From: a virus
Taxonomy: Duplodnaviria > Heunggongvirae > Uroviricota > Caudoviricetes
Virus record (IMG/VR): IMGVR_UViG_3300010965_000004
Span: 44,708-108,707 of that record
Strand: one strand, 5' to 3'
DNA length: 64,000 bases
Part shown: piece by piece, positions 43,326 to 54,046 of the stretch
Position numbering within the stretch: position 1 is the first letter of the stretch
How the letters are laid out: every line of letters starts with the position of its first letter
Made by a program: the position numbers and the translations under genes
Notes under the pieces: model-generated
What the model saw: only the letters and a program-made list of their open reading frames with translations
Databases searched by the model: none
Told to the model about the DNA's origin: nothing

Positions 43326-43403
43326 CTGCCAGTAGCTCAGCTGGACAAGAGCAGGGGGCTTCTATCCCCAAGGTCGGGAGTTCGAATCTCTCTTGGCAGG
43401 CCA
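43326..43403 (+). tRNA. tRNA-Arg(UCU)
   Basis: CTGCCAG acceptor; TAGCTCAGCTGGACAAGAGC; anticodon loop CTTCTAT; GGGAGTTCGAATCTCTC; CCA. Confidence 0.65.
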
Positions 43404-43459
43404 GTTATATAACCAAGTTTTCGTGCCCGAAAGGGAACTTTTGAAGAAAGAAGAAGGAA

Positions 43460-43714
43460 ATGGCAAAAGAGAAGAAAGCTGCTCCTGCAGCAGTTAACAC
43501 CAACGCTATCCGCAGGGATAGCAACAGGGCCATGAGGCTGAAGCAGCACCTGGCTCGAGTTGCGCGTAAACAAGGGAACCCACCAAAGGTTGCTCGTGGA
43601 ACCAAACGGGCCAAACGCCGTGAGGCAGCTGCAGTCTCTGGGATTGCTGGAGACAGTTTCCCTGAGCGTTGGAAGAAATTCTGCGACAAGGAAAAGGGTA
43701 TTCAGGTCCAATAA
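43460..43714 (+). CDS. small basic (Lys/Arg-rich) protein, GC-rich
   Basis: 84 aa; possible nucleic-acid-binding protein. Confidence 0.4.
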   Translation: MAKEKKAAPAAVNTNAIRRDSNRAMRLKQHLARVARKQGNPPKVARGTKRAKRREAAAVSGIAGDSFPERWKKFCDKEKGIQVQ

Positions 43715-43756
43715 GGAAAGGCGGCTAATCCCCGTCTTTTTATCTAAGGAAATAAC

Positions 43757-44023
43757 ATGGAACAAAGAATAGTATGTGCTGCTGAACGGCATAAACTAAC
43801 CAAACAACTTATCCTAGGGGTAAGACATAGTGATGAACTTATGCATACCCAAATTGATACTACATTTAATCACAACTGGGAGTCAGGGTTTGTTGATAAC
43901 AGAGGACAGTTCCTAACCAGGACTGAAGCCTGGAAAGTAGCTCACGAAGCTGACCAGATTATCAGACGTTGTGGTGGCGATGACACTAACGGCGGAACTC
44001 TTTATAGTGAGAATTTATATTAA
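43757..44023 (+). CDS. hypothetical protein
   Basis: 88-aa ORF. Confidence 0.35.
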   Translation: MEQRIVCAAERHKLTKQLILGVRHSDELMHTQIDTTFNHNWESGFVDNRGQFLTRTEAWKVAHEADQIIRRCGGDDTNGGTLYSENLY

Positions 44024-44298
44024 TGGCTTTTGAACATATCAAAACTAAATATTCTGTTTGTCGTAAACCTCACAGATGTATCTGGTGCGGAGCTCAAACA
44101 GAAGCTGGAGAAGAAGCTGTATACCGAGCTTACAAGATAAATGGAGACTTTGTTGATGACTACATGCATCCAGAATGTTATGATGCTATGAATGACAGTA
44201 CTCAAGACATGGATAATGACGAGTTTCTGCCTTATGAAGCATTACGGGGTAAAACAATAGCCGAGACGGAAGAAATACAACTAAAACAGAGGAGCTAA
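44023..44298 (+). CDS. hypothetical Cys-containing protein
   Basis: 91 aa; CRKPHRCIWCG...HPEC. Confidence 0.35.
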   Translation: MAFEHIKTKYSVCRKPHRCIWCGAQTEAGEEAVYRAYKINGDFVDDYMHPECYDAMNDSTQDMDNDEFLPYEALRGKTIAETEEIQLKQRS

Positions 44299-44757
44299 AT
44301 GATATATTGCCCAGGATGTAAATTAGAAAAAGAAAGAATAGAATTTCATAATAATAAAAGTCGTCCTAATGGGTTATCTTGTTATTGTAAACTCTGTACC
44401 AGCATAAATAATAGACAGAGAAGAGGTTTACCGGAATCTTCTATTAGACAACGAAGTGCTTTTATTAAATGGAAATATGGTATTTCACAAGAAGAATACT
44501 TAAAATTATTAAAAGCCCAAGATTTCAAATGTGCTATTTGTAAAACTCCACATGAAGAGGTTAGGAGACCAGGTAATCTAAAGCATGATGGGGTTTCATA
44601 TGGTCTTTGTATAGATCATAATCACATAACCAATAAAGTTAGAGGGCTTCTTTGCAATCAATGTAATAGAGCCCTCAGGTTGTTTAAAGATAATTTAGAA
44701 TTTCTTCAAAATGCTATAGAATACCTAAATACTACAGGAGAAAGAGATGCATCATAA
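44299..44757 (+). CDS. HNH endonuclease, T4 endonuclease VII-like
   Basis: 152 aa; CIDHNHITNKVRGLLCNQCNRALRLF matches the endo VII DHDH..GxVRGLLCxxCN motif. Confidence 0.6.
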   Translation: MIYCPGCKLEKERIEFHNNKSRPNGLSCYCKLCTSINNRQRRGLPESSIRQRSAFIKWKYGISQEEYLKLLKAQDFKCAICKTPHEEVRRPGNLKHDGVSYGLCIDHNHITNKVRGLLCNQCNRALRLFKDNLEFLQNAIEYLNTTGERDAS

Positions 44758-44816
44758 ACGGGGAAGATCCAGAAATCAACGAGCAGGGTGCAAGCTTTGT
44801 AAGCCAAATAAGATCA

Positions 44817-45107
44817 ATGGTTGGAATAAGAGAACTAAGCCTGGACATACCGGGTTTAGTAACCAAAAACAATGGGTTCTTAGTGAAGGAGATATTAAAC
44901 ATGACTGGTGAACGAATTTTTGTATTTGGCAGTAATCTCTCTGGAATACATGGTGCAGGAGCTGCTCTTTTTGCTCTTAGAAATTATGGAGCCGTCTATG
45001 GAATTGGAGCTGGGCCTACGGGAAATGCGTATGCTATTCCTACGATGGTTAAATGTAGTGTACTTCAGAAGTTTATTGGAACTTTCTTATTTATATTATC
45101 TTATTAA
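44817..45107 (+). CDS. hypothetical protein (Gly-rich nucleotide-binding-like segment); possibly the 5' part of a frameshifted gene
   Basis: likely start ATG ~44898 (MTGERIFVFGSNLSGIHGAGAALFA...); C-terminal 15 aa look non-native. Confidence 0.3.
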   Translation: MVGIRELSLDIPGLVTKNNGFLVKEILNMTGERIFVFGSNLSGIHGAGAALFALRNYGAVYGIGAGPTGNAYAIPTMVKCSVLQKFIGTFLFILSY

Positions 45108-45429
45108 TAATAAAATTGAATACGAATCTGGAGAATTACAAAAACACGGCATACCCTATAGCATAGATTTAGTAGATAGAATTTATTATCCAGATTTTAT
45201 ATTAGTAAAAACTGGAGAAGTTATCGAAATTAAACCTAAAAAGTTAATTAATACAGAATTAAATAAAGCAAAGTTTGATGCCGCTTCTAAATTACACTCA
45301 GAAAAATTCAAAGTTTTAACGGAAGAGAATTTAGAACCAATTACAAAAACTACTGTGCAAGATTTAATTAAGTCAGGTAACCTTGTTTTTTTGAATAAAG
45401 TAAAAATAAAGATGAAAAATGGCTACTAA
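44908..45429 (+). CDS. PD-(D/E)xK nuclease-like protein (C-terminal part); N-terminal part of the ORF is overlap artefact
   Basis: C-terminal IYYPDFILVKTGEVIEIKPKK = PD..(D/E)xK-like motif; no canonical start near domain start ~45100. Confidence 0.3.
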   Translation: MNEFLYLAVISLEYMVQELLFLLLEIMEPSMELELGLREMRMLFLRWLNVVYFRSLLELSYLYYLINNKIEYESGELQKHGIPYSIDLVDRIYYPDFILVKTGEVIEIKPKKLINTELNKAKFDAASKLHSEKFKVLTEENLEPITKTTVQDLIKSGNLVFLNKVKIKMKNGY

Positions 45430-45955
45430 GAAATTAAAAGTTATAAATATACTAGGAGGACCAGGTACTGGTAAAAGTACAGCACGAGCCGGGCTCTTTA
45501 ATTTGATGAAGACAGCTGGTATTAACTGTGAAGAAGTAACAGAATACGCTAAGGATTTAACCTGGGAACAAAGCCTTGACAAAATGGCGGACCAGCTTTA
45601 CATCCTGGCAAAACAGAACAGAAAACTCGAACGTTTAAAGGGGAAGGTCGAGTGGGTAATCTCCGATTCCCCCCTTTTACTGAGTTTACATTATGCCCCA
45701 TTGGATTACTTCCCTGAAACATTCCAAAATCTTGTCAAAGAACTCTGGGGATCTTATGACAACTATAATCTCTTTATTAAACGTAGCAAGCCTTATAATC
45801 CTGTTGGTAGAAACCAAACAGAAGAAGAAGCAAAGAGAATCGACCTCCAAATAATGGACATGTTGAACAAGAACAACTACAATTTCATTGTAGTGTCCGG
45901 TGAAAAACCTCACGAAACAATTTTTAATATGCTGCATCAGCTAAGGAGTATTTAA
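45419..45955 (+). CDS. P-loop NTPase / nucleotide kinase-like protein
   Basis: 178 aa; VINILGGPGTGKST Walker A. Confidence 0.5.
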   Translation: MATKKLKVINILGGPGTGKSTARAGLFNLMKTAGINCEEVTEYAKDLTWEQSLDKMADQLYILAKQNRKLERLKGKVEWVISDSPLLLSLHYAPLDYFPETFQNLVKELWGSYDNYNLFIKRSKPYNPVGRNQTEEEAKRIDLQIMDMLNKNNYNFIVVSGEKPHETIFNMLHQLRSI

Positions 45956-46149
45956 TGACAACACGAGTAATAATTAAAAGTCCTGAAAAAAATCATCAGG
46001 ATATTTTGGTAACAATCTTGAGTACTTCCATAACCAGAGATAGGCTTCCTTTGCCTCATGCAATACGGATTACAGATGGCCAAGAAGTAGAATTTAACGT
46101 CTATGGTTCCCAGTCTCTTCTGATTGAAGAAGTAGAGAAAGAGGTATAA
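45955..46149 (+). CDS. hypothetical protein
   Basis: 64-aa ORF, ATGA-coupled. Confidence 0.35.
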   Translation: MTTRVIIKSPEKNHQDILVTILSTSITRDRLPLPHAIRITDGQEVEFNVYGSQSLLIEEVEKEV

Positions 46150-46161
46150 CCAGGTTTTAAC

Positions 46162-46251
46162 GGTAGGATGGATGAGCGGTTTAAATCACTAGTCTTGAAA
46201 ACTAGCGGTCCTGAAAGGGGCCCCTGGGTTCGAATCCCAGTCCTATCGCCA
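46162..46251 (+). tRNA. tRNA-Ser(UGA)
   Basis: type II; GGTAGGA acceptor; anticodon loop CTTGAAA; long variable arm; CTGGGTTCGAATCCCAG; CCA. Confidence 0.65.
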
Positions 46252-46281
46252 AGGAACAAAAAAACATAACAGTGGTTCTCA

Positions 46282-46446
46282 TGGATAAATATGAATTGTT
46301 AAAAGAGCTAGGAAGTTGGGAACCTTCCGAACAGTTTTGGGAAGAGTTAAAACAACGTCTAATAGAAATTGAAAAAAAGTTTGAACAAGAACGAATAGCC
46401 TCAACTCCCGATGAAGCTTGGTATAACCGTAGGTATGACATATGAA
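46282..46446 (+). CDS. hypothetical small protein
   Basis: 54 aa. Confidence 0.3.
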
Positions 46447-46622
46447 CGAAGACCTTATCTTTCGGTTACGAAAAAGAGCAGAGATACGCAGGCAGATTCC
46501 TACACGCAAAAGTGTTCAAGAAGACAAGCCAGATAGAATCTCTGATTTACTAGAAGAAGCAGCAAATGCTTTAGAACAAGCTAATATAAAGCCTGTACTA
46601 GAGCCTCCATTTGGGGTTTAGA
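46443..46622 (+). CDS. hypothetical small protein
   Basis: 59 aa, ATGA-coupled. Confidence 0.3.
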
Positions 46623-46625
46623 TTT

Positions 46626-46716
46626 AGAAAGGTGGCAGAGCTGGTTTAATGCAACGGTTTGCTAAACCGTCGGTCCCGCAAGGGGCCCAAGGGTTCGAAT
46701 CCCTTCCTTTCGACCA
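46626..46716 (+). tRNA. tRNA-Ser(GCU)
   Basis: type II; anticodon arm ACGGT-TTGCTAA-ACCGT; AAGGGTTCGAATCCCTT; CCA; A1-G72 mispair. Confidence 0.6.
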
Positions 46717-46721
46717 GGATT

Positions 46722-46795
46722 GCACACGTAGCCAAGGGGATAGGCAGGGGATTGCAAATCCTCTTACGGGAGTTCGATTCTCTCCGTGTGCTCCA
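46722..46795 (+). tRNA. tRNA-Cys(GCA)
   Basis: GCACACG/CGTGTGC acceptor; anticodon loop TTGCAAA; GGGAGTTCGATTCTCTC; U73 + CCA. Confidence 0.65.
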
Positions 46796-46802
46796 AAAAC
46801 TA

Positions 46803-46825
46803 AAGCCCACAACGGGCTTTTTTTA
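46803..46825. terminator. bidirectional rho-independent terminator
   Basis: AAGCCC-ACAAC-GGGCTT + TTTTTT between tRNA array (+) and convergent HNH gene (-). Confidence 0.6.
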
Positions 46826-46826
46826 G

Positions 46827-47387
46827 TTAAAACAAATTTTTGAAAAACTGTATTCCTCTATATATTAATACTTTTATAATAAAGGCAAGGAACTCATCTT
46901 CTAAGTTATCCCCCTTGGCCATGTTAGATTGGCTCGTTAGAAAGTAACAATTTTCTAATGTAGATAGCCCACCTTTTGATACTGGAATTCTGTGGTCTAA
47001 GTGATAGGTTTCTGGCTTGGTAATATCTATCCATTCCCCCGTTAGATAATCTCTTGGTTCTCGAATAGCTAGTAGTTCTTCTTTAGTAAAAGGCAGAGAT
47101 TCGTTTTCTCCCCTATTACAAAAAATTCTAATCTTCTTTTCTAAAGGTCCAACGTCCTTTTTCTTTCTTTCTTCTGCCCAACCTTCTGGGTCATCCACAA
47201 ATTTAATTCTCTGTTTTACTGCATCTACAGAAACCCCCATGAGTTGGGAAATTTGCTTGGGGGAAAAGCCTCTATAGGTTAAGGCCATAATACACTCGAG
47301 ATGTTCAGGTTTTAAATTAGTCCTGGGTTTGAAAAAGGGTATGACAATATCAGGTACATCTACTGCTAAGGTGGTTTGTTGTTGCAT
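46827..47387 (-). CDS. HNH endonuclease with N-terminal HTH domain
   Basis: 186 aa; HLDHRIPVSKGGLSTLENCYFLTSQSNMAKGD HNH motif; N-terminal LTYRGFSPKQISQLMGVSVDAVKQRI HTH. Confidence 0.6.
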   Translation of the reverse strand: MQQQTTLAVDVPDIVIPFFKPRTNLKPEHLECIMALTYRGFSPKQISQLMGVSVDAVKQRIKFVDDPEGWAEERKKKDVGPLEKKIRIFCNRGENESLPFTKEELLAIREPRDYLTGEWIDITKPETYHLDHRIPVSKGGLSTLENCYFLTSQSNMAKGDNLEDEFLAFIIKVLIYRGIQFFKNLF

Positions 47388-47451
47388 TTGGTTTCCTCAA
47401 ATTTAAAACCAAATGATATCACACCTATATTTAAATTCCAAGCTTTTAATT

Positions 47452-47475
47452 TGGTATAAGAACAATGTAGAGAAA
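47452..47475 (+). promoter_or_regulatory. conserved phage promoter
   Basis: TGGTATAAGAACAATGTAGAGAAATAC. Confidence 0.5.
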
Positions 47476-47476
47476 T

Positions 47477-47545
47477 ACTTAAATAGCTAATTGGTTAAGC
47501 GCAACTAACGTTGAGTAATAGGTTCGAATCCTATATTAGGTATAG
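47477..47545 (+). other. tRNA-derived fragment (D-arm-like + T-arm, no anticodon arm)
   Basis: TAGCTAATTGGTTAAGC D-arm-like, ATAGGTTCGAATCCTAT T-arm, ATTAGGT 3' strand; middle folds only as CAAC-TAAC-GTTG. Confidence 0.25.
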
Positions 47546-47576
47546 CCCGTGAGGGCAATTCTTTTATCCCAAACCA

Positions 47577-47651
47577 GGGTGTATAGTTCAGGGGTAGAAC
47601 ACAGGACTCATAATCCTTAGGTCCCTGGTTCGAAACCAGGTGCACCCACCA
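47577..47651 (+). tRNA. tRNA(CAU) Met or Ile2 (second copy)
   Basis: GGGTGTA acceptor; anticodon loop CTCATAA; CCTGGTTCGAAACCAGG; CCA. Confidence 0.65.
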
Positions 47652-47669
47652 AATTTTAGACGAGGTTAT

Positions 47670-47828
47670 ATGACCGAAGATCAATTCCAAGCTTTATTGC
47701 ATTATATCGACCTCAAGGTAAGCTACGAAAAAAGGGCCTCTGCCTTGGGCTTCTTAGCTCTTGACGTTGCTGAAAGAGAACTCAGAGAACTTCTGGTCCC
47801 AAAATTGGTAAGTAGCTCAGTGGGATAA
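47670..47828 (+). CDS. hypothetical small protein
   Basis: 52 aa from ATG 47670 (RBS GACGAGG); 3' end overlaps tRNA-like gene. Confidence 0.3.
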   Translation: MTEDQFQALLHYIDLKVSYEKRASALGFLALDVAERELRELLVPKLVSSSVG

Positions 47829-47889
47829 TAGAGCGCGTGGAGAGATTCTAGATAACCACGAGGTCGTTGGTTCGAGTCCAACCTTACCA
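47805..47889 (+). tRNA. aberrant tRNA-like gene with 15-nt anticodon loop and no encoded CCA
   Basis: perfect stems TGGTAAG/CTTACCA, GCTC/GAGC, CGTGG/CCACG, GTTGG-TTCGAGT-CCAAC; anticodon loop AGAGATTCTAGATAA. Confidence 0.4.
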
Positions 47890-47907
47890 TTATTAATTGA
47901 GGTAACT

Positions 47908-48159
47908 ATGTTTCGTAAATTACTCTGCTGGCTTGGTAGTCACGGCCCCAATTGGCATGGCAACGAAAGTTGTAAAGCCAGTTCCCGCGATGGGAACGTT
48001 CCCTTCAATAGAACATGTTTGTTCTGTGGGGAAGTATGGTACGGTACCCAGGTTTATGGTCGTTATACACGCTACCTTGGGGATTGGAAAACGAAACAAC
48101 AACTGATAGCTACCGGCGAATGGAGGGAGCTTACTAAACATAAGGAGAAGCCATGTTAA
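47908..48159 (+). CDS. hypothetical Cys-containing protein
   Basis: 83-aa ORF, RBS GAGG. Confidence 0.4.
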   Translation: MFRKLLCWLGSHGPNWHGNESCKASSRDGNVPFNRTCLFCGEVWYGTQVYGRYTRYLGDWKTKQQLIATGEWRELTKHKEKPC

Positions 48160-48467
48160 AACCTGGTGACTTAGTAATGATAGTGAAACCCAGGGAATGT
48201 TGTGGTAGTACTAATACCTTGGGAGCAATACGAACAGTTTCTGACAGACTTCCCAGTGATGAAGCAATGTGCAGAACATGTGGTTTTATTAGTAAAACTG
48301 AAGGGTATATTCCCCTTAATGACAACACTGTTTGCGAGTCCAGTCGTCTCAAGAAAATCGAGCCGGGTAATGGAGTTGACGAAATAATCCGCATTGCTGG
48401 CCTTCCAAAGAAAATACCAAGGAAGAAGCTAATTTTTCACCTAGATCCTAAGAGGTTAGCCTTTTGA
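48153..48467 (+). CDS. hypothetical protein
   Basis: 104 aa, overlapping start. Confidence 0.4.
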   Translation: MLKPGDLVMIVKPRECCGSTNTLGAIRTVSDRLPSDEAMCRTCGFISKTEGYIPLNDNTVCESSRLKKIEPGNGVDEIIRIAGLPKKIPRKKLIFHLDPKRLAF

Positions 48468-49186
48468 AAATCCTGTCCAAATTCCAAGACTACTACGATT
48501 CAGCCCTGGCCTTTGGACAGGACGAAAGCATAGTCTTTAAAAGATTCAAAGAGGAATCAGAGTTAGGTAAAGATGAAAAGATTCCTTTTGATCTTCCCCT
48601 AAAATGTCCATGCAATGATCGTTGGTTTGCCGGATTTGATAAGCATTTACCCAATTGCTATCTTTCCAATTTTGTAATTGCTTTTTGTGGAAAGCTCTAT
48701 TATGGGGTAAGATTGGAATACTCCTTCATGTCAAAGGAAGGTATTACCACTTCTGAAGGTACTCAGCATTTTTACTCTAAGGAATCATTTGACAAATTCC
48801 TTTTAAGTAAAGGAGTTAAGAGTAAAGAACAAAAGAAAAGTTTTGTTCCTTTCTGGGAAAAGAAAGTTCCTTTGGGATATCTAGAAGACCAAGGATCTGA
48901 GGAGTTGAAAGAAAAGCTTATTGAAAACAAAGTCGTGGTGGCGTCTTGCATAGAACCTTCAGCTTTATATTTAGGAGGTAAAATCTTCACCCTCAACCCT
49001 CGCCTCAAAGACTTTGACTTTATCAAGATGGTTGACCCTTATACCGCCTACCAAGAACTCAGCATGTATATAGGCGGAATTTTAGCCCCAGAGTCAAAGC
49101 CAATGATTCAAGTTTCAGATAAGGATCGGGTTCAGCAACATGGATTCGATAAGTGGAGTTTCAGAAAAATGCCTGAGAAAATGTAA
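48464..49186 (+). CDS. hypothetical protein
   Basis: 240 aa, ATGA-coupled. Confidence 0.45.
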   Translation: MKILSKFQDYYDSALAFGQDESIVFKRFKEESELGKDEKIPFDLPLKCPCNDRWFAGFDKHLPNCYLSNFVIAFCGKLYYGVRLEYSFMSKEGITTSEGTQHFYSKESFDKFLLSKGVKSKEQKKSFVPFWEKKVPLGYLEDQGSEELKEKLIENKVVVASCIEPSALYLGGKIFTLNPRLKDFDFIKMVDPYTAYQELSMYIGGILAPESKPMIQVSDKDRVQQHGFDKWSFRKMPEKM

Positions 49187-49203
49187 TCTTAATTGGAGGC
49201 GCT

Positions 49204-49380
49204 ATGTTTGGCATGTTAGAAAGTTTGGCAAAAGCTGTGGTAGGGGTTGTAGTAGAAACTCCAATTGCAGTGGTTAAAGATGTGGTTACCCTTGGTGGCG
49301 CTCTCACTGACCAGGATGAGCCAAGTACTGTTACTGCTTTGAAAAAAGTGGTGAAAAACGTTGGAGACTCTACAAAATGA
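49204..49380 (+). CDS. hypothetical small protein
   Basis: 58 aa. Confidence 0.3.
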   Translation: MFGMLESLAKAVVGVVVETPIAVVKDVVTLGGALTDQDEPSTVTALKKVVKNVGDSTK

Positions 49381-49475
49381 CAGTAGAGATAATTCAAGCT
49401 ATAGGGCAATACATAATCTCACCTATTTGCGTTCTTGGTGGACTATTTGTTTTTTTCTGGTTTTTATCGAGGTAA
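49377..49475 (+). CDS. very small membrane peptide
   Basis: 32 aa, one TM helix, ATGA-coupled. Confidence 0.25.
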   Translation: MTVEIIQAIGQYIISPICVLGGLFVFFWFLSR

Positions 49476-49478
49476 TTT

Positions 49479-49814
49479 ATGGCTATCAACCCAAGACCAC
49501 CAAGACCAGAGAGTGTTCCAGATATGGCCGTGGAAGAAGTCAATGCGCCTCCCCGAGGTTCAGATTGGCCCTTCCCGGTAGGAAATCCGGTACGCAAAGC
49601 TCCCGTTAGTACCTCCGTAACGGAGACAAAAGAGTTTGCTCCCTTTAAACTTTCTCTTCTTATAAATACAGAGGAAGAAGCGAAGTTTCTAAATACCTTG
49701 GTTGCTGCTGAGTTAGTGGCATCAAAAGGCTTCGGAGGATTCTCCAGTACTAATCAGGCAAAAACAATAAAGTTGTTAAAAGAGCTACAATCCGCAATCC
49801 AAAGACATCTCTAA
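49479..49814 (+). CDS. hypothetical protein
   Basis: 111 aa, Pro-rich N-terminus. Confidence 0.4.
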   Translation: MAINPRPPRPESVPDMAVEEVNAPPRGSDWPFPVGNPVRKAPVSTSVTETKEFAPFKLSLLINTEEEAKFLNTLVAAELVASKGFGGFSSTNQAKTIKLLKELQSAIQRHL

Positions 49815-49826
49815 TCGGGGAAACAC

Positions 49827-50036
49827 ATGAAAGAACTTTTTGTTGTAAAAAATAGAAGCGGGGAAATCGTTAAAGGCGGCTTCAATCAAAAGGAAGGTGC
49901 CAAGAGATCTCGTGACCGCTTCCAAGCTGAAACCAAAGAAGGAATCCCCGACGAAAGATCCAATCACCACAACTGGTCCTTCTTCGTTGCTCCAGGAAAA
50001 GATCATCATCGTATGGAACCGAGGAGGGACTTATAA
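49827..50036 (+). CDS. hypothetical protein
   Basis: 69 aa; stop TAA is in frame with the pilin-like sequence that follows. Confidence 0.35.
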   Translation: MKELFVVKNRSGEIVKGGFNQKEGAKRSRDRFQAETKEGIPDERSNHHNWSFFVAPGKDHHRMEPRRDL

Positions 50037-50272
50037 AATCAAGACACCGAGGGTTTACTCTCATTGAACTGTTGATCGCAGTTTCTATAATAGGGATTAT
50101 AACAGCAGTAGCTATCCCTCATTTTCAAGGAAAGACTTTTGAACGGGAAGGTCCCCCAAAAAACACCGCTTTTCCTTCTTGTCAAAAAGGTTATCTATTT
50201 GTTCAAGCAGTAAGAAATGGCCCTTTAACGCAGGTTATGGGTCAAGATGGAAAACCAGAAACCTGCAACTAA
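50036..50272 (+). pseudogene. type IV pilin-like gene lacking a canonical start (class III signal motif)
   Basis: ...NQRHRG|FTLIELLIAVSIIGIITAVAIP = prepilin motif G|FTLIEL + hydrophobic helix; no ATG/GTG/TTG upstream of the motif; separated from upstream ORF by a single in-frame TAA. Confidence 0.4.
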
Positions 50273-50303
50273 CCTCAACTTCATCGTAAACAAAGGAAAT
50301 AAA

Positions 50304-51113
50304 ATGGGTAAGCTCCACGAACTCCTGGCAGTTGAAGCCAGTAACGAAGCCGCTGCAACGGCTCTCATCGGCCAAACGACTAATACCTTCAAGAGCAAGG
50401 AAAACTTGTTCAAGGGTAAGGCTCGTACTCTGCAGATGTTCGGCAAAAACGAACAGAACCAGATCGAGATGACGGCCATCGAAGCCAAGAACTACCAGAA
50501 TCTTCTGGTCTCGGCAACAATCCCCGACAGCCTGAACTACATGGCCTGTGTTCTGGCTGACTACTACGATGTGGTAGCCCAGAAGGAACTGACCAACCAG
50601 CTGGCCAAGGCTGATGTGGTTATTGATGGCAAAGTCATCATCGAAGGCGTTCCGGCCACGTTCCTGCTTGGTATGGAAACCAAGCTGAAGACTCTCCGCA
50701 ACGTGTTGGATGAAATTCCGACGATGGCTCCGGGGATGCTGTGGAAAGAGGCTACTGAAATTGGCCGGTTCATCTACAAGACGGACCCGATACGGGATAT
50801 CAAAACGGAGAAGATGACGGATCACAAAATGCTCCCGCAACCGAATCCTAACATCCCGGTTCAGTACGTTCCCATCGAGTCGTCCAAGAATGTTGGCGAG
50901 TACACCGAAGTCAACTTCACCGGCCTGATCAACTCGGCTGACAAGGCCAAGCTCATCGAGCGTCTTGACTCCCTGCTGAAGGCAGTGAAACAAGCTAGGC
51001 AACGTGCCAACAATGTTGATGCTTCGACCACCAAGGTTGGGGACAAGATGATGGGCTACCTCTTGGGTGCCTGGTATGACCGTTCCAAGATGAACGTCGA
51101 GGCGAAAGTCTAA
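50304..51113 (+). CDS. hypothetical protein, GC-rich moron
   Basis: 270 aa from ATG 50304 (RBS AAAGGAAAT). Confidence 0.45.
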   Translation: MGKLHELLAVEASNEAAATALIGQTTNTFKSKENLFKGKARTLQMFGKNEQNQIEMTAIEAKNYQNLLVSATIPDSLNYMACVLADYYDVVAQKELTNQLAKADVVIDGKVIIEGVPATFLLGMETKLKTLRNVLDEIPTMAPGMLWKEATEIGRFIYKTDPIRDIKTEKMTDHKMLPQPNPNIPVQYVPIESSKNVGEYTEVNFTGLINSADKAKLIERLDSLLKAVKQARQRANNVDASTTKVGDKMMGYLLGAWYDRSKMNVEAKV

Positions 51114-51169
51114 GATGTTCTCCCCGCTAGTCAATGGCCGATTAGCGGGGATTTTCAACAGGAGTAATC

Positions 51170-51349
51170 ATGCGATTCTTGGCTGTACCTGCTGTTATCT
51201 TAATTCTAACCTGGATCATTCTATGGTTCTGGAAAGAGTGGAGTCATGTACCAACCTGGAAAAAAATAGGGACAATTGCCGTATGTTCTCTTGGAGCTTT
51301 GCTTCTTTCCGCTGGTATCATCTTTCTCATCGTCATTGTTTTCAACTAG
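51170..51349 (+). CDS. small membrane protein (NfeD-like partner of SPFH gene)
   Basis: 59 aa, two TM helices, RBS CAGGAG; immediately upstream of SPFH gene. Confidence 0.4.
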   Translation: MRFLAVPAVILILTWIILWFWKEWSHVPTWKKIGTIAVCSLGALLLSAGIIFLIVIVFN

Positions 51350-51357
51350 GAGCTGAA

Positions 51358-52155
51358 ATGAAACGACTTTTTCTTCTTGCAGTAGCAGCATGTTTGGTTC
51401 TACTTACCGGCTGCACCCGTATCGAAACGGGGCATACCGGAGTACGAGTTTCCTTCAATGGAACCTACGAGCCAACGGAACTAGGGGTTGGGTATCACCA
51501 GACCATCATCGGCCATATCAAGGAATACGTCAGTAATGAAATGACGATTGCCTTGGATAATCTTCATCCCCAAACCAAGGATAAGTCCAATCTAGAAGAC
51601 TTGGATTTGGCCTTCACATACTCTGTGGATCCTTCCTATATCTCGGAAGCCGTCAGCAGATATAAAGGCCGGGATCTTCAAGTAGGTCAGGACACCTACC
51701 CTCTTGGTCAGTATGTTGCCAGTATAGTCCAGACTTCTATCACGGATGTCTTCAGTCATTATGATGCTTTAATGGCGAACGATAACCGCGAAAAAATCCG
51801 GGAAGAAATCAGAGCTCAAACGATAAAGCTCCTGGCTGAAGAAAAACTGGAGGGTAAAGTACGAATCCACCAGATCTTCATCAAGAATTTGCAAATTGCC
51901 AAAGCTTTACAGGCATCGGCTCAAACGGTGATCACTGCCCAGAATGATTTCAAGGCCAAGGAATTTGAAGTTCAAACGGCCAGAAAAGAAGCGGAGCGAT
52001 TGGTCCTCCTTTCGGCTAACAAAGCCAATATCGAGTACATGAACGCCAAGTCTCTCAGCGATATTGCTGAAGGTATCAAGACCGGCAAGGTTCATACCAT
52101 TGTTGTTCCGTTCGATTTCAAGGGTATCGTGAACGTTCCGAATTACGCCAAGTAA
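51358..52155 (+). CDS. SPFH/band-7 (stomatin/prohibitin-like) lipoprotein
   Basis: 265 aa; lipobox LLTGC; SPFH-like core IGHIKEYVSNEMTIALDNL..., coiled-coil C-part. Confidence 0.55.
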   Translation: MKRLFLLAVAACLVLLTGCTRIETGHTGVRVSFNGTYEPTELGVGYHQTIIGHIKEYVSNEMTIALDNLHPQTKDKSNLEDLDLAFTYSVDPSYISEAVSRYKGRDLQVGQDTYPLGQYVASIVQTSITDVFSHYDALMANDNREKIREEIRAQTIKLLAEEKLEGKVRIHQIFIKNLQIAKALQASAQTVITAQNDFKAKEFEVQTARKEAERLVLLSANKANIEYMNAKSLSDIAEGIKTGKVHTIVVPFDFKGIVNVPNYAK

Positions 52156-52201
52156 CAAGTATCCCGCTGGCCTTAGGGCTGGCGGGGTCTAAGGAGTAGA
52201 A

Positions 52202-52498
52202 ATGAAAAGAAGCACCGAAAAAACATTCTTCTGGGGATTTGCTCTTTTAATACTCGTGGCCTTCTTTATTTCAGGGTGTAGTAAACCCGCTGAAACAGTT
52301 TCATCCACTTCAAATCCTGAAGTCAATGTTGGAAAACTTTTCACTTATGATGGGTGTACCGTTTACAGGTTTGGCGATGTAGGGTACAGTCACTATTTTG
52401 TAAAATGTGAAGGGCAAAACTCAAGTACTAGTTTTAGAATGAGATATTGTGGAAAAAACTGTCGTAATCCAGAAAGCATTACAACAGAGCAGTTATAA
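52202..52498 (+). CDS. small lipoprotein
   Basis: 98 aa; signal + lipobox FFISGC; RBS TAAGGAG. Confidence 0.5.
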   Translation: MKRSTEKTFFWGFALLILVAFFISGCSKPAETVSSTSNPEVNVGKLFTYDGCTVYRFGDVGYSHYFVKCEGQNSSTSFRMRYCGKNCRNPESITTEQL

Positions 52499-52524
52499 CG
52501 AATTTAAACAAACACGCTTAGGCG

Positions 52525-52547
52525 TGGTATAAGATAATTGTGGTAGA
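52525..52547 (+). promoter_or_regulatory. conserved phage promoter
   Basis: TGGTATAAGATAATTGTGGTAGA. Confidence 0.45.
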
Positions 52548-52666
52548 TTCATCGTTGTTGTTGCTGTGACCGAGAAGGTGTATAACCCACTTTCTTTACT
52601 TAGCTTTATCGTTTTGCCACAGTAGCTTCAATAGTGTTCCAGTAATAAAAGAAGCAACTCTAAACT

Positions 52667-52764
52667 CAGATTGGTCCCTGGTTCAATCCCAGGCAAGCCC
52701 GCAAAAAGTCTTGGCAATAGCTAGGGTTTTTCGTGGGCTTGTAGCTCAGTGGTAGAGCAATTTG
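52667..52764 (+). ncRNA. tRNA-like gene 'Y' in permuted order: 3' half (anticodon 3' strand, T-arm, 3' acceptor) upstream of 5' half (acceptor, D-arm, anticodon 5' strand)
   Basis: CAGAT-TGGTC-CCTGGTTCAATCCCAGG-CAAGCCC then 33 nt then GGGCTTG-TA-GCTCAGTGGTAGAGC-A-ATTTG; acceptor 7/7 plus extra AAAAA/TTTTT pairing. Confidence 0.4.
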
Positions 52765-52810
52765 TTCACTTGTCCCCGAAGAGTTGTCTATCTAAAAACG
52801 AGGAATGCGA

Positions 52811-53023
52811 AAACTCATAAACCTGCTGGTTCGAGTCCAGCCTTCCCCACAAAGAGCCCCGCCGCCGCAGTACCCAACATCTTAGCGTTCGACCCCGGTC
52901 TATAAGACACTCCTCCAAGAGGATACCTTCGGGCTACGAGCTAAGTAACTTGAGTTTCGCCTGCGGCTGGGTTCTTTGTGGGGAAGTAGACAAATTGGTA
53001 AAGTCAACTATTATTGAAATAGT
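52811..53023 (+). ncRNA. tRNA-like gene 'X' in permuted order with 14-bp extended acceptor helix and ~120-nt structured intervening loop
   Basis: GCTGG-TTCGAGT-CCAGC-CTTCCCCACAAAGA ...120 nt... TCTTTGTGGGGAAG-TA-GAC-AAATTGGTAAA-GTC-A-ACTAT-TATTGAA-ATAGT; perfect 14-bp pairing; inner GCCGCAG/CTGCGGC helix. Confidence 0.4.
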
Positions 53024-53076
53024 CAACTATTATTGAAATAGTCAACTATTATTGAAATAGTCAATTATATGAATAG
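53003..53076 (+). repeat. 19-bp tandem direct repeat x3.9 (GTCAACTATTATTGAAATA)
   Basis: copies at 53003, 53022, 53041 + degenerate 53060; unit equals the D-stem 3' strand + anticodon stem-loop of tRNA-like X. Confidence 0.8.
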
Positions 53077-53224
53077 GGGTCCGGCCCAGGCTAGTGGTCG
53101 GATCCCGCCTAAAGCTCTCTCAACTTGCTATAGCAAGGAAATGGTACCCAAACTCCCCAGTTATGGCCCGAATATTTCAGAGAGAGCTTCAGACGGGATT
53201 AAAACTTATTCAGAAGGAGAAGAA

Positions 53225-53413
53225 ATGAATCAAGAATCTTGGGTCATCGTTTGGATTGTAGGAATGCTGTTTAGCCTTGTGTTCATTTATATGACCATAG
53301 GGTATACAGGTTTGTGTTGTATGTTTCCCGAAGGTAAACGTTGGTGGCATACCCCATCAGAGCTTCTTTCCTTATCTTTTTTTGCAGCTCTAATTCACTT
53401 TCATCCATTCTAA
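53225..53413 (+). CDS. small membrane protein
   Basis: 62 aa from ATG 53225 (RBS AAGGAG); the track's earlier 53069 start lies in a structured GC-rich leader. Confidence 0.4.
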   Translation: MNQESWVIVWIVGMLFSLVFIYMTIGYTGLCCMFPEGKRWWHTPSELLSLSFFAALIHFHPF

Positions 53414-53422
53414 AGGACTATT

Positions 53423-53638
53423 ATGTGCCGTCAATCAAAAAATCGTAAACAAGCAGCTCGTTCCAAACAGGCTCGTGGTGAGAAGGCAAGACAGCACTTT
53501 GCTGAAGGCCAGGCTCACATGAAATGTCCACACCAACAAGTGGCCCCGTGCTGGCTGGTACCAAATACCAAGAAACGCAGCTGGTGGAACAAGAAAGCTC
53601 CGTCAGTAACTCGTCGTGATCTTGGTCTGAGCGACTGA
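53423..53638 (+). CDS. small basic protein, GC-rich
   Basis: 71 aa, Lys/Arg-rich. Confidence 0.35.
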   Translation: MCRQSKNRKQAARSKQARGEKARQHFAEGQAHMKCPHQQVAPCWLVPNTKKRSWWNKKAPSVTRRDLGLSD

Positions 53639-53640
53639 TC

Positions 53641-53949
53641 ATGAAACCCTTGTCCAAGATGCACCGAAGGGTTCTGGATAAGAAAAACGGGCTTAACGTT
53701 AGTTCTCTTGTGCCCCCAAAATACAAGATTACTGCTGGCAAAGGTAAAAAGGGAAGAAACTGTAACGTTACTGCCTGCCAGCAGTTAGGTGCTACGTGGT
53801 ATAATCGAGTTATGAAAGCTTGGTATTGTCCACGTTGCGCTCGGGAAATAAATCTCTGGTCGGTTAAAGATGGTCATGGAGAAATCTGTGCCCTTGATCC
53901 AGAAGCAGAGGTTATCTACGACGCAGAGCCAGAAGAAGTAATCACATAG
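53641..53949 (+). CDS. zinc-ribbon protein
   Basis: 102 aa; CNVTAC...CPRCAREI...GEICALD Cys clusters; ATGA-coupled. Confidence 0.4.
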   Translation: MKPLSKMHRRVLDKKNGLNVSSLVPPKYKITAGKGKKGRNCNVTACQQLGATWYNRVMKAWYCPRCAREINLWSVKDGHGEICALDPEAEVIYDAEPEEVIT

Positions 53950-53956
53950 TAACCGA

Positions 53957-54046
53957 GCGGGTGTGGCAGAGCCTGGTTTATTGCACCTGCCTTCCAAGCA
54001 GGAGGTGTTAACTCATCCACGAGTTCGAATCTCGTCACCCGCTCCA
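53957..54046 (+). tRNA. type II tRNA with anticodon loop CTTCCAA (anticodon UCC by position); identity uncertain, Sec/Ser-like architecture
   Basis: GCGGGTG/CACCCGC acceptor, 3-4 bp D-stem with long loop, CCTGC-CTTCCAA-GCAGG, 16-nt variable arm, ACGAGTTCGAATCTCGT, U73 + CCA; loop differs by one base from tRNA-Sec CTTCAAA. Confidence 0.45.

What the first reader, a model, noticed from the sequence alone, without database searches (positions are those of the whole stretch)
52667..53076. Two tRNA-like genes in circularly permuted order with extended acceptor helices, plus a 19-bp tandem repeat derived from an anticodon arm
Read linearly, the tRNA-like gene at 52735-52849 has an acceptor stem of only 4/7 bp. 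Its 5' acceptor strand GGGCTTG instead pairs perfectly with the CAAGCCC lying right after the upstream T-arm (52694-52700). Its own 3' strand CTTCCCC pairs perfectly with GGGGAAG 135 nt downstream (52980-52986), which starts another tRNA 5' half (D-arm AAATTGGTAAA, anticodon arm ACTAT-TATTGAA-ATAGT). So the layout is [3' half Y]-[5' half Y + 3' half X]-[structured 120-nt loop]-[5' half X]. Both inter-half helices are extended well beyond 7 bp (14 bp perfect for X: CTTCCCCACAAAGA/TCTTTGTGGGGAAG). The two 3' halves are paralogous (AAACTCAGATTGGTCCCTGGTTCAATCCCAGGCAAGCCC versus AAACTCATAAACCTGCTGGTTCGAGTCCAGCCTTCCCC). Right after 5' half X, its D-stem/anticodon-arm segment is tandemly repeated 3.9 times (GTCAACTATTATTGAAATA, 53003-53076). 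Possible readings: permuted or split tRNA genes needing RNA ligation (the phage encodes Rnl1, an Rnl2-like ligase and Pnk), a decayed tandem tRNA duplication, or a tRNA-derived regulatory or ori element.
Basis: seen in the sequence. Interest (0 to 1): 0.8.

Follow-up and report, generated by a model that had tools for sequence, protein, structure and literature searches.

The report
Phage Y RNA-like tRNA mimics
The "permuted tRNA genes" are two tandem copies of a known kind of noncoding RNA, the Y RNA-like (YrlA-type) tRNA mimic with a closed acceptor stem; in other phages it sits next to a Ro60-like protein gene, but none was found within 84 kb here.

Summary
At 52634-53068 (+ strand) two tRNA-like modules have the order T-arm, 3' acceptor strand, hairpin or insert, 5' acceptor strand, D-arm. 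A 19-nt unit repeated 3.5 times follows.

This layout defines YrlA-type Y RNAs, which Wang et al. [quoted passage not shown]

- A covariance model built only from other phages' modules ranks module Y first in the window (59.3 bits). It aligns X end-to-end (38.4 bits).
- In 19 verified modules the closed acceptor stem is 97% paired, with compensatory changes at all 7 pairs.
- In other phages these RNAs occur as tandem pairs or triplets beside a Ro60 (TROVE) gene or a remote Ro60 homolog (DUF2828/DUF7788). Examples are Escherichia phage mio and Mycobacterium phage LeBron.
- Y carries the stem motif of the DUF2828-linked subfamily with one base changed (CAGTAAT, not CAGCAAT).

Against a working split tRNA: Y has no anticodon arm. 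X's hairpin has A33 and duplicates tRNA-Gln. Neither module encodes CCA, whereas all 22 canonical tRNAs do.

Unusual here: no Ro-like gene within 84 kb, a 131-nt structured insert in X's acceptor hairpin, and the triplicated hairpin.

Verdict: new variant of a known kind, moderate interest.

The parts
52634..52640 (+). Module Y: 5' strand (GTGTTCC) of the outer closing helix P1
   Evidence: It pairs with GGAATGC at 52802-52808 in the MFE and centroid folds. It occupies the same position as the covarying closing helices of family members.
52637..52651 (+). Module Y: 5' stem motif TTCCAGTAATAAAAG, a one-base variant of the subfamily motif CAGCAAT
   Evidence: Compare L033 TTCAGCAATAAAAC, L184/L186 TTTACAGTAAT, phage mio TACAGCAA and LeBron (A/G)CAGCAAT x3.
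52654..52661 (+). Module Y: 5' strand (GCAACTCT) of an extra inner helix
   Evidence: It pairs with AGAGTTGT at 52780-52787. This helix is absent from the closest relative, L033a.
52668..52766 (+). Module Y: tRNA-like core. Inner stem GATT/AATT; T-arm 52677-52693; closed acceptor stem 52694-52700/52735-52741 with a 34-nt hairpin extension; TA linker; D-arm 52744-52758
   Evidence: Model R2, trained without window sequences, gives 59.3 bits, E about 7e-11, the top hit in the window. Rfam YrlA gives 31.4 bits over model positions 17-92.
52780..52787 (+). Module Y: 3' strand (AGAGTTGT) of the inner helix
52790..52808 (+). Module Y: 3' A-rich strand ATCTAAAAAC followed by the P1 3' strand GGAATGC (52802-52808)
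   Evidence: ATCTAAAAAC is identical in L033a. A-runs precede the P1 3' strand in all subfamily members.
52816..53023 (+). Module X: T-arm 52825-52841; acceptor 3' strand plus extension 52842-52855; structured insert 52856-52972; extension plus acceptor 5' strand 52973-52986; TA; D-arm 52989-53005; anticodon-arm-like hairpin 53007-53023
   Evidence: R2 gives 38.4 bits for a full-length alignment of 52816-53013 with all acceptor pairs canonical. The fold has z = -6.7. The same D-arm type and trailing hairpin occur in L023c, L166b, L184, L186 and L205b.
53002..53068 (+). 19-nt tandem repeat, 3.5 copies: a local triplication of X's D-arm 3' half plus the trailing hairpin
   Evidence: TRF; the repeat finder; the unit occurs nowhere else in the window. 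An independent assembly breaks inside it.
53077..53205 (+). Downstream structured segment with the long helix ATCCCGCCTAAAGCTCTCTC / GAGAGAGCTTCAGACGGGAT. Whether it belongs to the RNA locus is uncertain, because it may lie in the 5' part of the ORF called at 53069-53413
   Evidence: Inverted repeat I2; fold; no Rfam match.

Best explanation
The locus encodes a tandem pair of Y RNA-like (YrlA-type) noncoding RNAs on the + strand, the strand of all the phage's tRNA genes.

Each RNA folds into a tRNA-shaped core. A T-arm and a D-arm form the elbow, and a 7-bp acceptor stem is closed by a hairpin instead of ending in CCA. In Y, the 5' and 3' flanks pair into a long irregular stem where the anticodon stem would be.

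In related phage RNAs this flanking stem carries a conserved motif (CAGCAAT on the 5' strand, an A-run on the 3' strand). The RNAs are encoded beside a Ro60 (TROVE) gene or a Ro60-like DUF2828/DUF7788 gene.

Inferred mechanism: the stem binds the Ro-like protein, and the tRNA-like domain recruits or imitates tRNA-interacting factors. Together they would form an RNP for RNA surveillance or repair during infection, alongside the phage's Rnl1, PNKP and Rnl2-like enzymes.

Shown: the structure, family membership, covariation, and the gene association in other phages.
Inferred: transcription, protein binding, and the biological role. The identity of the partner protein in this phage is unknown.
For: - Rfam aligns 52663-52766 to YrlA in the order T-arm, closed acceptor stem, D-arm (31.4 bits, E = 1e-4 for the 901-nt region).
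- Phage modules that lie next to real TROVE genes score just above this: 33.8-37.9 bits. DUF2828-adjacent modules score 35.8-39.3 bits.
- Model R2, trained on non-window modules only, gives Y 59.3 bits and X 38.4 bits.
- In 19 verified modules the acceptor stem is 97% paired with compensatory changes at 7 of 7 pairs, and the T-arm is 100% paired. Overall pairing is 85%, against about 41% when partners are slid. No shuffle out of 500 reaches the covariation score.
- Closing helices covary: AGGGTAC/GTACCCT, AGGGTTC/GAACCCT, AATATTG/CAATATT, GATAAGAG/CTCTTATC, GGACTC/GAGTCC.
- TROVE plus vWA_Ro60 ORFs lie next to modules in L023, L116, L166 and L205. DUF2828 plus DUF7788 ORFs lie next to modules in L003, L033, L043/L081, L093, phage mio and phage LeBron.
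- DUF2828 is a remote Ro60 homolog: hhalign probability 89%, E = 2e-6, over 325 columns.
- Y shares TTC(C)AG(T/C)AATAAAA, TAAACTCAG, an identical D-arm and ATCTAAAAAC with the DUF2828-adjacent module L033a.
- Tandem pairs with an X-type second module recur in L023, L034, L166 and L003.
- The Levitt pair is compensated: G15:C48 in Y and A15:U48 in X, read directly from the sequence.
- Published descriptions of YrlA match the layout (PMC4201824; 10.1101/312249).
Against: - No TROVE or DUF2828 homolog was found in the window, nor in 9-10 kb beyond either end (tblastn, HMMs, Pfam).
- Published YrlAs lie within about 4 kb of Ro60.
- The GNCGAAN0-1G motif of YrlA is absent. X has only UGCGAAAAC.
- Y's motif has one mismatch, and its closing helix is shifted into the motif.
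- X has no closing helix or stem motif of its own.
- Rfam's gathering score (69 bits) is not reached.
- Most seed modules were picked by requiring acceptor pairing, so that part of the covariation is partly circular.
- There are no expression data.
Confidence: 0.68

Rival explanations
1. The RNAs are the same tRNA mimics, but they act without any Ro-like protein. They might serve as decoys or sponges for host tRNA-targeting defences (anticodon nucleases, tRNA-modifying or tRNA-sensing factors). Or they might become stable two-piece, CCA-ended tRNA-like RNAs after RNase P cleavage, as shown for M. smegmatis YrlA.
For: - No Ro-like gene within 84 kb.
- Five other S1-motif loci (L034, L046, L070, L184, L186) also lack one in the DNA fetched, 7-14 kb each.
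- The acceptor stems are exactly 7 bp and stacked on 5-bp T-stems. That is the geometry which made M. smegmatis YrlA an RNase P substrate followed by CCA addition (PMC4201824).
- The phage invests heavily in tRNA biology and RNA repair: 22 tRNAs, a tmRNA, Rnl1, PNKP and an Rnl2-like ligase.
Against: - Y keeps the stem motif and closing helix that accompany the DUF2828 gene elsewhere. This suggests a protein partner, possibly encoded outside the sequenced part or by the host.
- The acceptor helices continue past position 73 (U-G and G-C in Y, seven more pairs in X). This is not ideal for RNase P.
- No experimental data.
Confidence: 0.17
2. Y and X are true circularly permuted or split tRNA genes. 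Their transcripts would be processed, and perhaps ligated by Rnl1 or the Rnl2-like ligase, into decoding tRNAs.
For: - Permuted order with perfect 7-bp acceptor stems.
- X and other X-type modules have a 5-bp/7-nt-loop hairpin exactly where the anticodon arm belongs.
- RNA ligases are encoded.
- No tRNA-Asn was found in the window.
Against: - Y has no anticodon arm. Its flanks form a long stem instead.
- X's loop is UAUUGAA, with A33 in place of the near-universal U33. Its 'anticodon' UUG duplicates tRNA-Gln at 37918-37991.
- The trailing-hairpin loops of X-type modules vary freely and lack conserved U33.
- No Asn-type anticodon arm is linked to the modules.
- 22 of 22 canonical tRNAs encode CCA. 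Y and X do not.
- The homologous RNAs sit next to Ro60-like genes, not in place of missing tRNAs. Those phages already have full tRNA sets, including Asn.
Confidence: 0.06
3. The locus is a rearrangement scar: decayed tandem tRNA duplications with no function. The 19-bp repeats would be slippage products, or a DNA-level element such as iterons or a promoter array.
For: - Junctions between tandem, near-identical ordinary tRNAs can mimic the permuted pattern and reach 45-57 bits with model R1.
- The 19-nt repeat is 97% identical, so it is recent. Sigma-70-like hexamers fall within it.
- The window holds other aberrant tRNA-like sequences.
Against: - In the window the pairing is opposite to that of tandem tRNAs. 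Each 5' strand pairs with the upstream 3' strand but not with its own (4/7).
- The helices run on into the 'spacers' (9+12 bp in Y, 18-24 bp in X).
- Y has the family's closing helix, motif and A-run, and scores 59 bits with a model that never saw it.
- The repeat unit occurs nowhere else in the window.
Confidence: 0.05

Closest known systems
YrlA (Rfam RF02553), the Y RNA-like tRNA mimic bound by bacterial Ro60/Rsr (Chen et al. 2014, PMC4201824; Wang et al. 2018, bioRxiv 10.1101/312249)
   Same: - Order: variable region, T-arm, acceptor stem closed by a loop, UA linker, D-arm.
- The flanks pair where the anticodon stem would be.
- tRNA tertiary-contact nucleotides are kept, including a compensated Levitt pair.
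- Acceptor stem length varies.
- Tandem arrangement with a second Y RNA (YrlB).
- Reported in phages.
   Different: - No Ro60 gene within 84 kb; published cases lie within about 4 kb.
- No GNCGAAN0-1G motif. Y has a CAGTAAT-type motif shared with a phage subfamily next to DUF2828 genes.
- Scores 31 bits, below the gathering score of 69.
- Exact 7-bp acceptor stems with very long inserts (34 and 131 nt).
- Lies in a jumbo-type phage's tRNA region.
Mycobacterium smegmatis YrlA and YrlB (PMC4201824)
   Same: - 7-bp acceptor stem on a tRNA-like core.
- Two RNAs processed from one precursor.
- RNase P cleaves at the acceptor, and CCA is added to the 3' strand. The result is a two-piece 'permuted tRNA'.
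   Different: Processing is untested here. In Y and X the acceptor helices continue beyond position 73.
Two-piece (circularly permuted) tmRNA, Rfam RF04321. One copy lies in this same window at 31208-31488
   Same: A permuted gene order with the T-arm and 3' acceptor strand upstream of the 5' acceptor strand, joined by an intervening loop. It is a tRNA mimic.
   Different: Y and X have no tag reading frame and no pseudoknots. The tmRNA_permuted model gives only 13.6-14.3 bits against a gathering score of 47. Y and X have a full D-arm, which tmRNA lacks.
Circularly permuted tRNA genes of Cyanidioschyzon merolae, some green algae and Thermofilum (recalled from my own knowledge; not tested against those sequences)
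   Same: The 3' half is encoded upstream of the 5' half, with a short linker between the acceptor strands.
   Different: - Those genes yield complete decoding tRNAs through a circular intermediate made by the splicing endonuclease and ligase.
- Y lacks an anticodon arm, and X's is non-canonical.
- No bulge-helix-bulge signal was looked for or is expected in bacteria.
- Homologs here are linked to Ro60-like genes.
Phage RNAs next to DUF2828 genes: Escherichia phage mio (Felix O1-like), Mycobacterium phage LeBron, and IMG/VR contigs L003, L033, L043, L093. This group was defined here
   Same: - Closing helix, 5' CAG(C/T)AAT motif and 3' A-run.
- tRNA-like core with TAGCTCAGTGGTAGAGCA.
- Tandem units.
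- Location within or beside a tRNA array.
   Different: - Those phages have the DUF2828/DUF7788 gene 0.1-5 kb away on the same strand. The window does not.
- The window's Y has one motif mismatch and an extra inner helix.
- X lacks its own stem module and has a triplicated trailing hairpin.

Membership tests
YrlA-type Y RNA (RF02553; Chen 2014, Wang 2018) | Domain order: variable region, T-arm, acceptor-like stem closed by a loop, UA dinucleotide, D-arm | tested here: met
   The cmscan alignment to YrlA positions 17-92 covers Y. R2 gives full-length alignments of Y and X. TA follows both 5' acceptor strands.
YrlA-type Y RNA (RF02553; Chen 2014, Wang 2018) | Nucleotides for tRNA tertiary contacts: T-loop TTCRA, GG in the D-loop, and a Levitt pair 15:48 with compensatory G:C or A:U | tested here: met
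   Read from the sequence. Y has TTCAATC, AGTGGTA and G15:C48. X has TTCGAGT, AAATTGGTAAA and A15:U48.
YrlA-type Y RNA (RF02553; Chen 2014, Wang 2018) | The 5' and 3' flanks pair into a long stem at the anticodon-stem position | tested here: met
   In Y: GATT/AATT, AAC/GTT, GCAACTCT/AGAGTTGT and GTGTTCC/GGAATGC in the MFE and centroid folds. For X this is inconclusive; only TCATAA with TTAT(A)TGA is possible.
YrlA-type Y RNA (RF02553; Chen 2014, Wang 2018) | GNCGAAN0-1G (Ro60/Rsr-binding) motif near the 5' end | tested here: not met
   Y has none. X has UGCGAAAAC at 52805-52813, a partial match.
YrlA-type Y RNA (RF02553; Chen 2014, Wang 2018) | Encoded within about 4 kb of a Ro60 (TROVE) gene on the same strand | tested here: not met
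   No TROVE hit among the window ORFs (Pfam; tblastn; HMMs). None in the flanking 9-10 kb either.
YrlA-type Y RNA (RF02553; Chen 2014, Wang 2018) | Rfam gathering score (69 bits) | tested here: not met
   Y scores 31.4 bits. Phage modules beside genuine TROVE genes also fail, at 33.8-37.9 bits. This threshold therefore does not discriminate for phage versions.
YrlA-type Y RNA (RF02553; Chen 2014, Wang 2018) | Bound by Ro60/Rsr; modified by TruB and DusA | not testable with these tools
   Needs immunoprecipitation and modification mapping.
Phage 'CAGCAAT' stem subfamily next to DUF2828/DUF7788 (defined here) | Covarying closing helix, then the 5' motif (A/T)(A/T)CAGCAAT, with an A-run before the 3' strand | tested here: met
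   Y has GTGTTCC|AGTAATAAAAG ... ATCTAAAAACGA|GGAATGC. There is one motif mismatch (CAGTAAT, as in L184 and L186), and the helix is shifted 3-4 nt into the motif.
Phage 'CAGCAAT' stem subfamily next to DUF2828/DUF7788 (defined here) | A DUF2828/DUF7788 (Ro-like) gene nearby on the same strand | tested here: not met
   Present in L003, L033, L043/L081, L093, mio and LeBron. Absent from the window plus or minus 10 kb. The rest of the source genome could not be read.
Phage 'CAGCAAT' stem subfamily next to DUF2828/DUF7788 (defined here) | Tandem units; the second has the divergent D-arm TAGACAA..TGG..AAGTC and a trailing 5-bp/7-nt hairpin | tested here: met
   Window X compared with L023c, L166b, L184, L186 and L205b.
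Functional circularly permuted or split tRNA gene | A complete anticodon arm with a 7-nt loop, U33 and a purine at position 37 | tested here: not met
   Y has none. X's loop is UAUUGAA, with A33.
Functional circularly permuted or split tRNA gene | A 3' end suitable for aminoacylation (CCA), as in the genome's other tRNAs | tested here: not met
   22 of 22 canonical tRNAs encode CCA. Y has G-CAA and X has A-CAA after the acceptor strand. Post-transcriptional addition is not excluded.
Functional circularly permuted or split tRNA gene | Supplies a decoding capacity that is otherwise missing | tested here: not met
   X's UUG duplicates tRNA-Gln at 37918-37991. Asn is missing from the window, but no GUU anticodon arm is linked to the modules.
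Functional circularly permuted or split tRNA gene | Circular or ligated processing intermediates | not testable with these tools
   Needs RNA sequencing of infected cells.
Two-piece (permuted) tmRNA | A tag reading frame and pseudoknots; the Rfam tmRNA_permuted gathering score (47 bits) | tested here: not met
   13.6 and 14.3 bits, covering only the T-arm and acceptor part. The window's real permuted tmRNA scores 116 bits at 31208-31488.

The most novel reading that the evidence does not exclude
Phage Y RNA-like tRNA mimics, including Y and X, may not be static closed hairpins. Their exact 7-bp acceptor stems might be cut by RNase P and tailed with CCA. This would give two-piece, tRNA-shaped RNAs held together by the acceptor and closing helices.

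These RNAs would work with a Ro-like DUF2828 protein, or in this phage without one. They could act as decoys or sensors for host tRNA-cleaving defences and feed the phage's Rnl1/PNKP repair pathway.

On this reading, the CAGCAAT-stem RNA plus DUF2828 pair would be an undescribed RNP that is widespread in phages (Felix O1-like phages, cluster L mycobacteriophages, cyanophages). The window would be a version that has lost or relocated the protein gene.
Probability: 0.15. Interest if true: 0.75.

Novelty: new variant of a known kind. Interest (0 to 1): 0.5.

Why it matters
- It accounts for a puzzling "permuted tRNA" pattern by a known RNA class. This guards against mis-annotating such loci as split tRNAs, as pseudogenes, or as opposite-strand hypothetical proteins. 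The last has happened in phage mio.
- It suggests that Y RNA-like tRNA mimics are common in the tRNA regions of large phages, and that one subfamily pairs with the uncharacterised DUF2828/DUF7788 proteins. More than 700 phage records carry that gene. A concrete RNA partner and a testable binding motif (closing helix plus CAGCAAT) would then be available for it.
- The window is an informative exception. The RNAs are present, but no Ro-like gene lies within 84 kb. This bears on whether the tRNA-like domain has a function independent of Ro.

Tried and rejected
Searches that led nowhere:
- blastn of the locus against 50,697 phage records found no match.
- The SPFH protein encoded upstream found no relatives in IMG/VR. 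Its 52-66% identical homologs in the large protein database lie in unrelated contexts, so they give no syntenic relatives.
- The nearest complete genome by RNAP beta, Salmonella phage Arash (54% identity), was fetched whole. It has no modules, no Ro-like gene and almost no synteny around this locus, so it is uninformative.
- A DUF2828 profile against PDB sequences gave nothing. The Ro60 link rests on hhalign alone.
About 25 kb of the 108.7-kb source contig, and any remainder of the genome, stays unread.
- Burroughs & Aravind 2016 and the Sim et al. 2020 review could not be read.

False leads:
- The first DNA pattern scan mostly returned neighbouring ordinary tRNAs.
- Model R1 also hits junctions between tandem, near-identical tRNAs at 45-57 bits (L143, L147, L167, L170, L219). 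These were removed from the covariation set.

Ideas considered and dropped:
- The modules supply the missing tRNA-Asn. No GUU anticodon arm is associated with them.
- A second permuted tmRNA (14 bits).
- The repeat is a dispersed operator. The unit is unique to this site.
Full report
**1. What is in the sequence**

The stretch 52499-53225 is a 727-nt gap between ORFs. It lies on the + strand, the strand of all 22 tRNA genes and of the permuted tmRNA in this window.

Module Y:
- T-arm, 52677-52693.
- 3' acceptor strand CAAGCCC, 52694-52700.
- A 34-nt extension that forms a continuous hairpin.
- 5' acceptor strand GGGCTTG, 52735-52741.
- TA linker, then D-arm, 52744-52758.

Module X:
- T-arm, 52825-52841.
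- CTTCCCCACAAAGA, 52842-52855.
- A structured insert.
- TCTTTGTGGGGAAG, 52973-52986.
- TA linker, then D-arm, 52989-53005.
- Hairpin ACTAT-TATTGAA-ATAGT, 53007-53023.

The hairpin is repeated. TRF finds 3.5 copies of a 19-nt unit at 53002-53068. Three copies of the 17-nt hairpin are exact.

Read linearly, 52735-52849 is only a weak Rfam tRNA hit, with three broken acceptor pairs and a 49-nt insert.

The folds are far more stable than shuffled controls: z = -3.7 for Y, -6.7 for X and -7.6 for the whole gap.

**2. The lead**

A permissive Rfam scan aligned 52663-52766 to YrlA, the bacterial Y RNA-like tRNA mimic. The order matched: T-arm, closed acceptor stem, D-arm, flanked by a stem (31.4 bits, below the gathering score of 69).

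The literature describes this architecture:
- Chen et al. 2014 (PMC4201824) define YrlA by the order V, T, acceptor-like stem-loop, D, with the Ro60-binding stem formed by the two ends.
- Wang et al. [quoted passage not shown] They add that acceptor stem length varies.
- M. smegmatis YrlA has a 7-bp acceptor stem. It is cut by RNase P and receives CCA.

**3. A family in phages**

A DNA pattern scan of IMG/VR, followed by a script that demands the permuted layout, found the same modules in many unrelated viral contigs, usually inside tRNA arrays.

I built covariance model R1 from the core. True modules score 43-71 bits with it.

Junctions between neighbouring ordinary tRNAs can reach 45-57 bits when the neighbours are near-identical. 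I recognised these false positives by their flanks and removed them.

On 19 verified modules:
- The closed acceptor stem is 97% paired, with compensatory changes at all 7 pairs.
- The T-arm is 100% paired and the D-arm 85%.
- Overall pairing is 85%, against about 41% when partners are slid by 1-3 columns.
- No shuffle out of 500 reaches the covariation score.

One caveat applies. Most seeds were picked by requiring acceptor pairing. The stronger, independent evidence is therefore the next two points.

**4. Flanks and gene neighbours, neither used for selection**

Each module is enclosed by a covarying closing helix. Examples are AGGGTAC/GTACCCT, AGGGTTC/GAACCCT, AATATTG/CAATATT, GATAAGAG/CTCTTATC and AAAACAG/CTGTTTT.

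Two stem types exist.

The first type carries GTTACTTCG after the 5' strand. It lies next to ORFs with TROVE plus the Ro60 vWA domain (L023, L116, L166, L205). These are phage YrlAs in the published sense.

The second type carries (A/T)(A/T)CAGCAAT and an A-run before the 3' strand. It lies 0.1-5 kb from, and on the same strand as, a DUF2828 plus DUF7788 ORF (L003, L033, L043/L081, L093).

DUF2828 proteins occur in 711 phage records. Depositors often call them 'Ro-like RNA binding protein'. A profile-profile comparison with the phage TROVE proteins gives 89% probability and E = 2e-6 over 325 columns, including the vWA DxSGSM motif.

The pairing holds in cultured phages:
- Escherichia phage mio (Felix O1-like) has two tandem CAGCAA-stem units 1 kb downstream of the gene, inside the tRNA array. 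Only the second unit contains the tRNA-like core. The region is annotated as a minus-strand hypothetical protein.
- Mycobacterium phage LeBron has three tandem units directly after gp53, each with its own closing helix and (A/G)CAGCAAT. The middle unit holds the tRNA-like core (48 bits), and a terminator follows.

This mirrors the YrlA/YrlB arrangement. Several RNAs share a protein-binding stem, and one carries the tRNA mimic.

**5. Placing the window's RNAs**

Model R2 was trained only on modules from other phages. It ranks Y first in the 64-kb window (59.3 bits, E about 7e-11). It aligns X over its full length with every acceptor pair canonical (38.4 bits despite a 121-nt insert). The best ordinary tRNA junction has six non-canonical pairs.

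Y shares four features with the DUF2828-adjacent module L033a:
- TTC(C)AG(T/C)AATAAAA.
- TAAACTCAG.
- An identical D-arm.
- ATCTAAAAAC.

Y has a closing helix, GTGTTCC/GGAATGC, and an extra inner helix, GCAACTCT/AGAGTTGT. Its motif, CAGTAAT, differs by one base from CAGCAAT. The same variant occurs in L184 and L186.

X belongs to a recurrent 'second module' type. The D-arm is TAGACAA..TGG..AAGTC and is followed by a 5-bp/7-nt-loop hairpin, as in L023c, L166b, L184, L186 and L205b.

The Levitt pair is compensated: G15:C48 in Y and A15:U48 in X.

Y's Rfam YrlA score (31.4 bits) lies just below the range of phage modules beside real TROVE genes (33.8-37.9) and beside DUF2828 genes (35.8-39.3). 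All of these fail the gathering score.

**6. Why not split or permuted tRNAs**

- Y has no anticodon arm.
- X's hairpin loop is UAUUGAA, with A33. Its 'anticodon' UUG duplicates tRNA-Gln at 37918-37991.
- Loops of the equivalent hairpins in other phages vary freely.
- All 22 canonical tRNAs in the window encode CCA. Y (G-CAA) and X (A-CAA) do not.
- The window lacks a tRNA-Asn, but no GUU anticodon arm is linked to the modules. Phages with homologous RNAs have full tRNA sets.
- Nothing needs to be ligated, because the 'halves' are joined by the acceptor hairpin.

A rearrangement scar is unlikely. The pairing pattern is the reverse of that of tandem tRNAs, the helices extend into the 'spacers', and the layout is conserved with covariation.

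**7. What is unusual here**

- No TROVE or DUF2828 homolog was found in the window or in 9-10 kb beyond either end. That is about 84 kb of a source contig of at least 108.7 kb. The rest could not be read.
- X's acceptor hairpin carries a 131-nt structured insert behind an 18-24 bp helix. L116 has an 86-nt counterpart.
- X has no stem module of its own. Only 16 nt (GAAAACTCATAAACCT) separate Y's closing strand from X's T-arm.
- X's trailing hairpin is triplicated. The unit occurs nowhere else in the window, and an independent assembly breaks inside it.

**8. Mechanism**

Shown: the structure, family membership, covariation, and linkage to Ro60-like genes in other phages.

Inferred:
- The RNAs are transcribed with the tRNA region.
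- They fold into a tRNA-like L shape with a closed acceptor end.
- Y's stem binds a Ro-like protein, encoded elsewhere in the phage or by the host.
- The tRNA-like domain engages tRNA-recognising factors.
- Together they form an RNA surveillance or repair RNP alongside Rnl1, PNKP and the Rnl2-like ligase.

The main rival is a Ro-independent role for the same RNAs, as a decoy or as an RNase P-processed two-piece tRNA-like RNA.

**9. Verdict**

The finding is real. It is explained by a known class, the YrlA-type tRNA mimic. The window's version is a divergent variant: it has the DUF2828-type stem motif, no partner gene nearby, giant acceptor inserts and a triplicated hairpin.

I could find no description of the link between the CAGCAAT-stem RNAs and DUF2828 in the papers I was able to search. 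The five papers that mention DUF2828 concern plants or a tardigrade. That link may be the more valuable result.

Noticed in passing
window 31208-31488 (+): A circularly permuted (two-piece) tmRNA gene: Rfam tmRNA_permuted 116 bits, ARAGORN tag peptide AANDSSFAQVRLAA. The phage therefore carries a second kind of permuted tRNA mimic.
   Followed up: partly
window 34548-54046: The 22 tRNA genes cover every amino acid except Asn, and all 22 encode their 3'-CCA. No Asn (GUU) anticodon arm with a tRNA context was found anywhere in the window.
   Followed up: partly
window 47477-47542 and 47803-47889 (+): Two more aberrant tRNA-like sequences. The first scores 37.6 bits on the Rfam tRNA model, has no clean 7-nt anticodon loop, and is not called by ARAGORN. 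The second is a cloverleaf with a 7-bp acceptor stem (TGGTAAG/CTTACCA) but a 15-nt 'anticodon' loop, AGAGATTCTAGATAA.
   Followed up: no
window 53077-53205 (+): A GC-rich, strongly structured segment directly after the 19-nt repeat, with a 20-nt inverted repeat at 90% complementarity. It begins GGGGUCCGG, which resembles the metazoan Y RNA Ro-binding GGUCCGA. It may be RNA, or the 5' part of the ORF called at 53069-53413. A shorter ORF with a good RBS starts at 53226.
   Followed up: partly
window 35823-36090; 19065-20461: A group I intron (Rfam 74.5 bits) lies in the tRNA region. The thymidylate synthase gene appears to be interrupted by a GIY-YIG/I-TevI-like homing endonuclease ORF.
   Followed up: no
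L124 (Escherichia phage mio, MN850631) 4790-5030: The tandem CAGCAA-stem RNAs, the second with a tRNA-like core at 51.7 bits, lie under the annotated minus-strand hypothetical CDS mio_111 (locus 4888-5118). That CDS is probably a mis-annotation.
   Followed up: partly
L258 (Listeria phage LMTA-57, KJ591605) 3001-7061: The DUF2828 gene lies 1.3 kb upstream of an RtcB-type 'tRNA-splicing ligase' on the same strand. This recalls the bacterial rsr-yrlA-rtcB operons. No strong module was found with R2 in the 396-nt gap upstream of the gene.
   Followed up: partly
L205 4208-4333 (+): A tRNA-like element in normal order: GGGGAAG ... T-arm ... CTTCCCC-A-CAAAGA. It has the GTTACTTCG stem motif inside it, and the same acceptor stem and 3' extension as window X. 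It sits just upstream of an X-type module and 3 kb from a TROVE gene.
   Followed up: no
L123 end / L130 start (window about 53031-53035): The independent Logan assembly of sample ERR2583788 breaks exactly inside the 19-nt tandem repeat. The copy number may therefore be variable or unresolved by short reads.
   Followed up: no
L143, L147, L167, L170, L219: Tandem arrays of near-identical ordinary tRNAs produce the same 'upstream 3' strand pairs with downstream 5' strand' signal. They score 45-57 bits with the core model. This is a trap for any automated search for permuted tRNA-like modules.
   Followed up: yes
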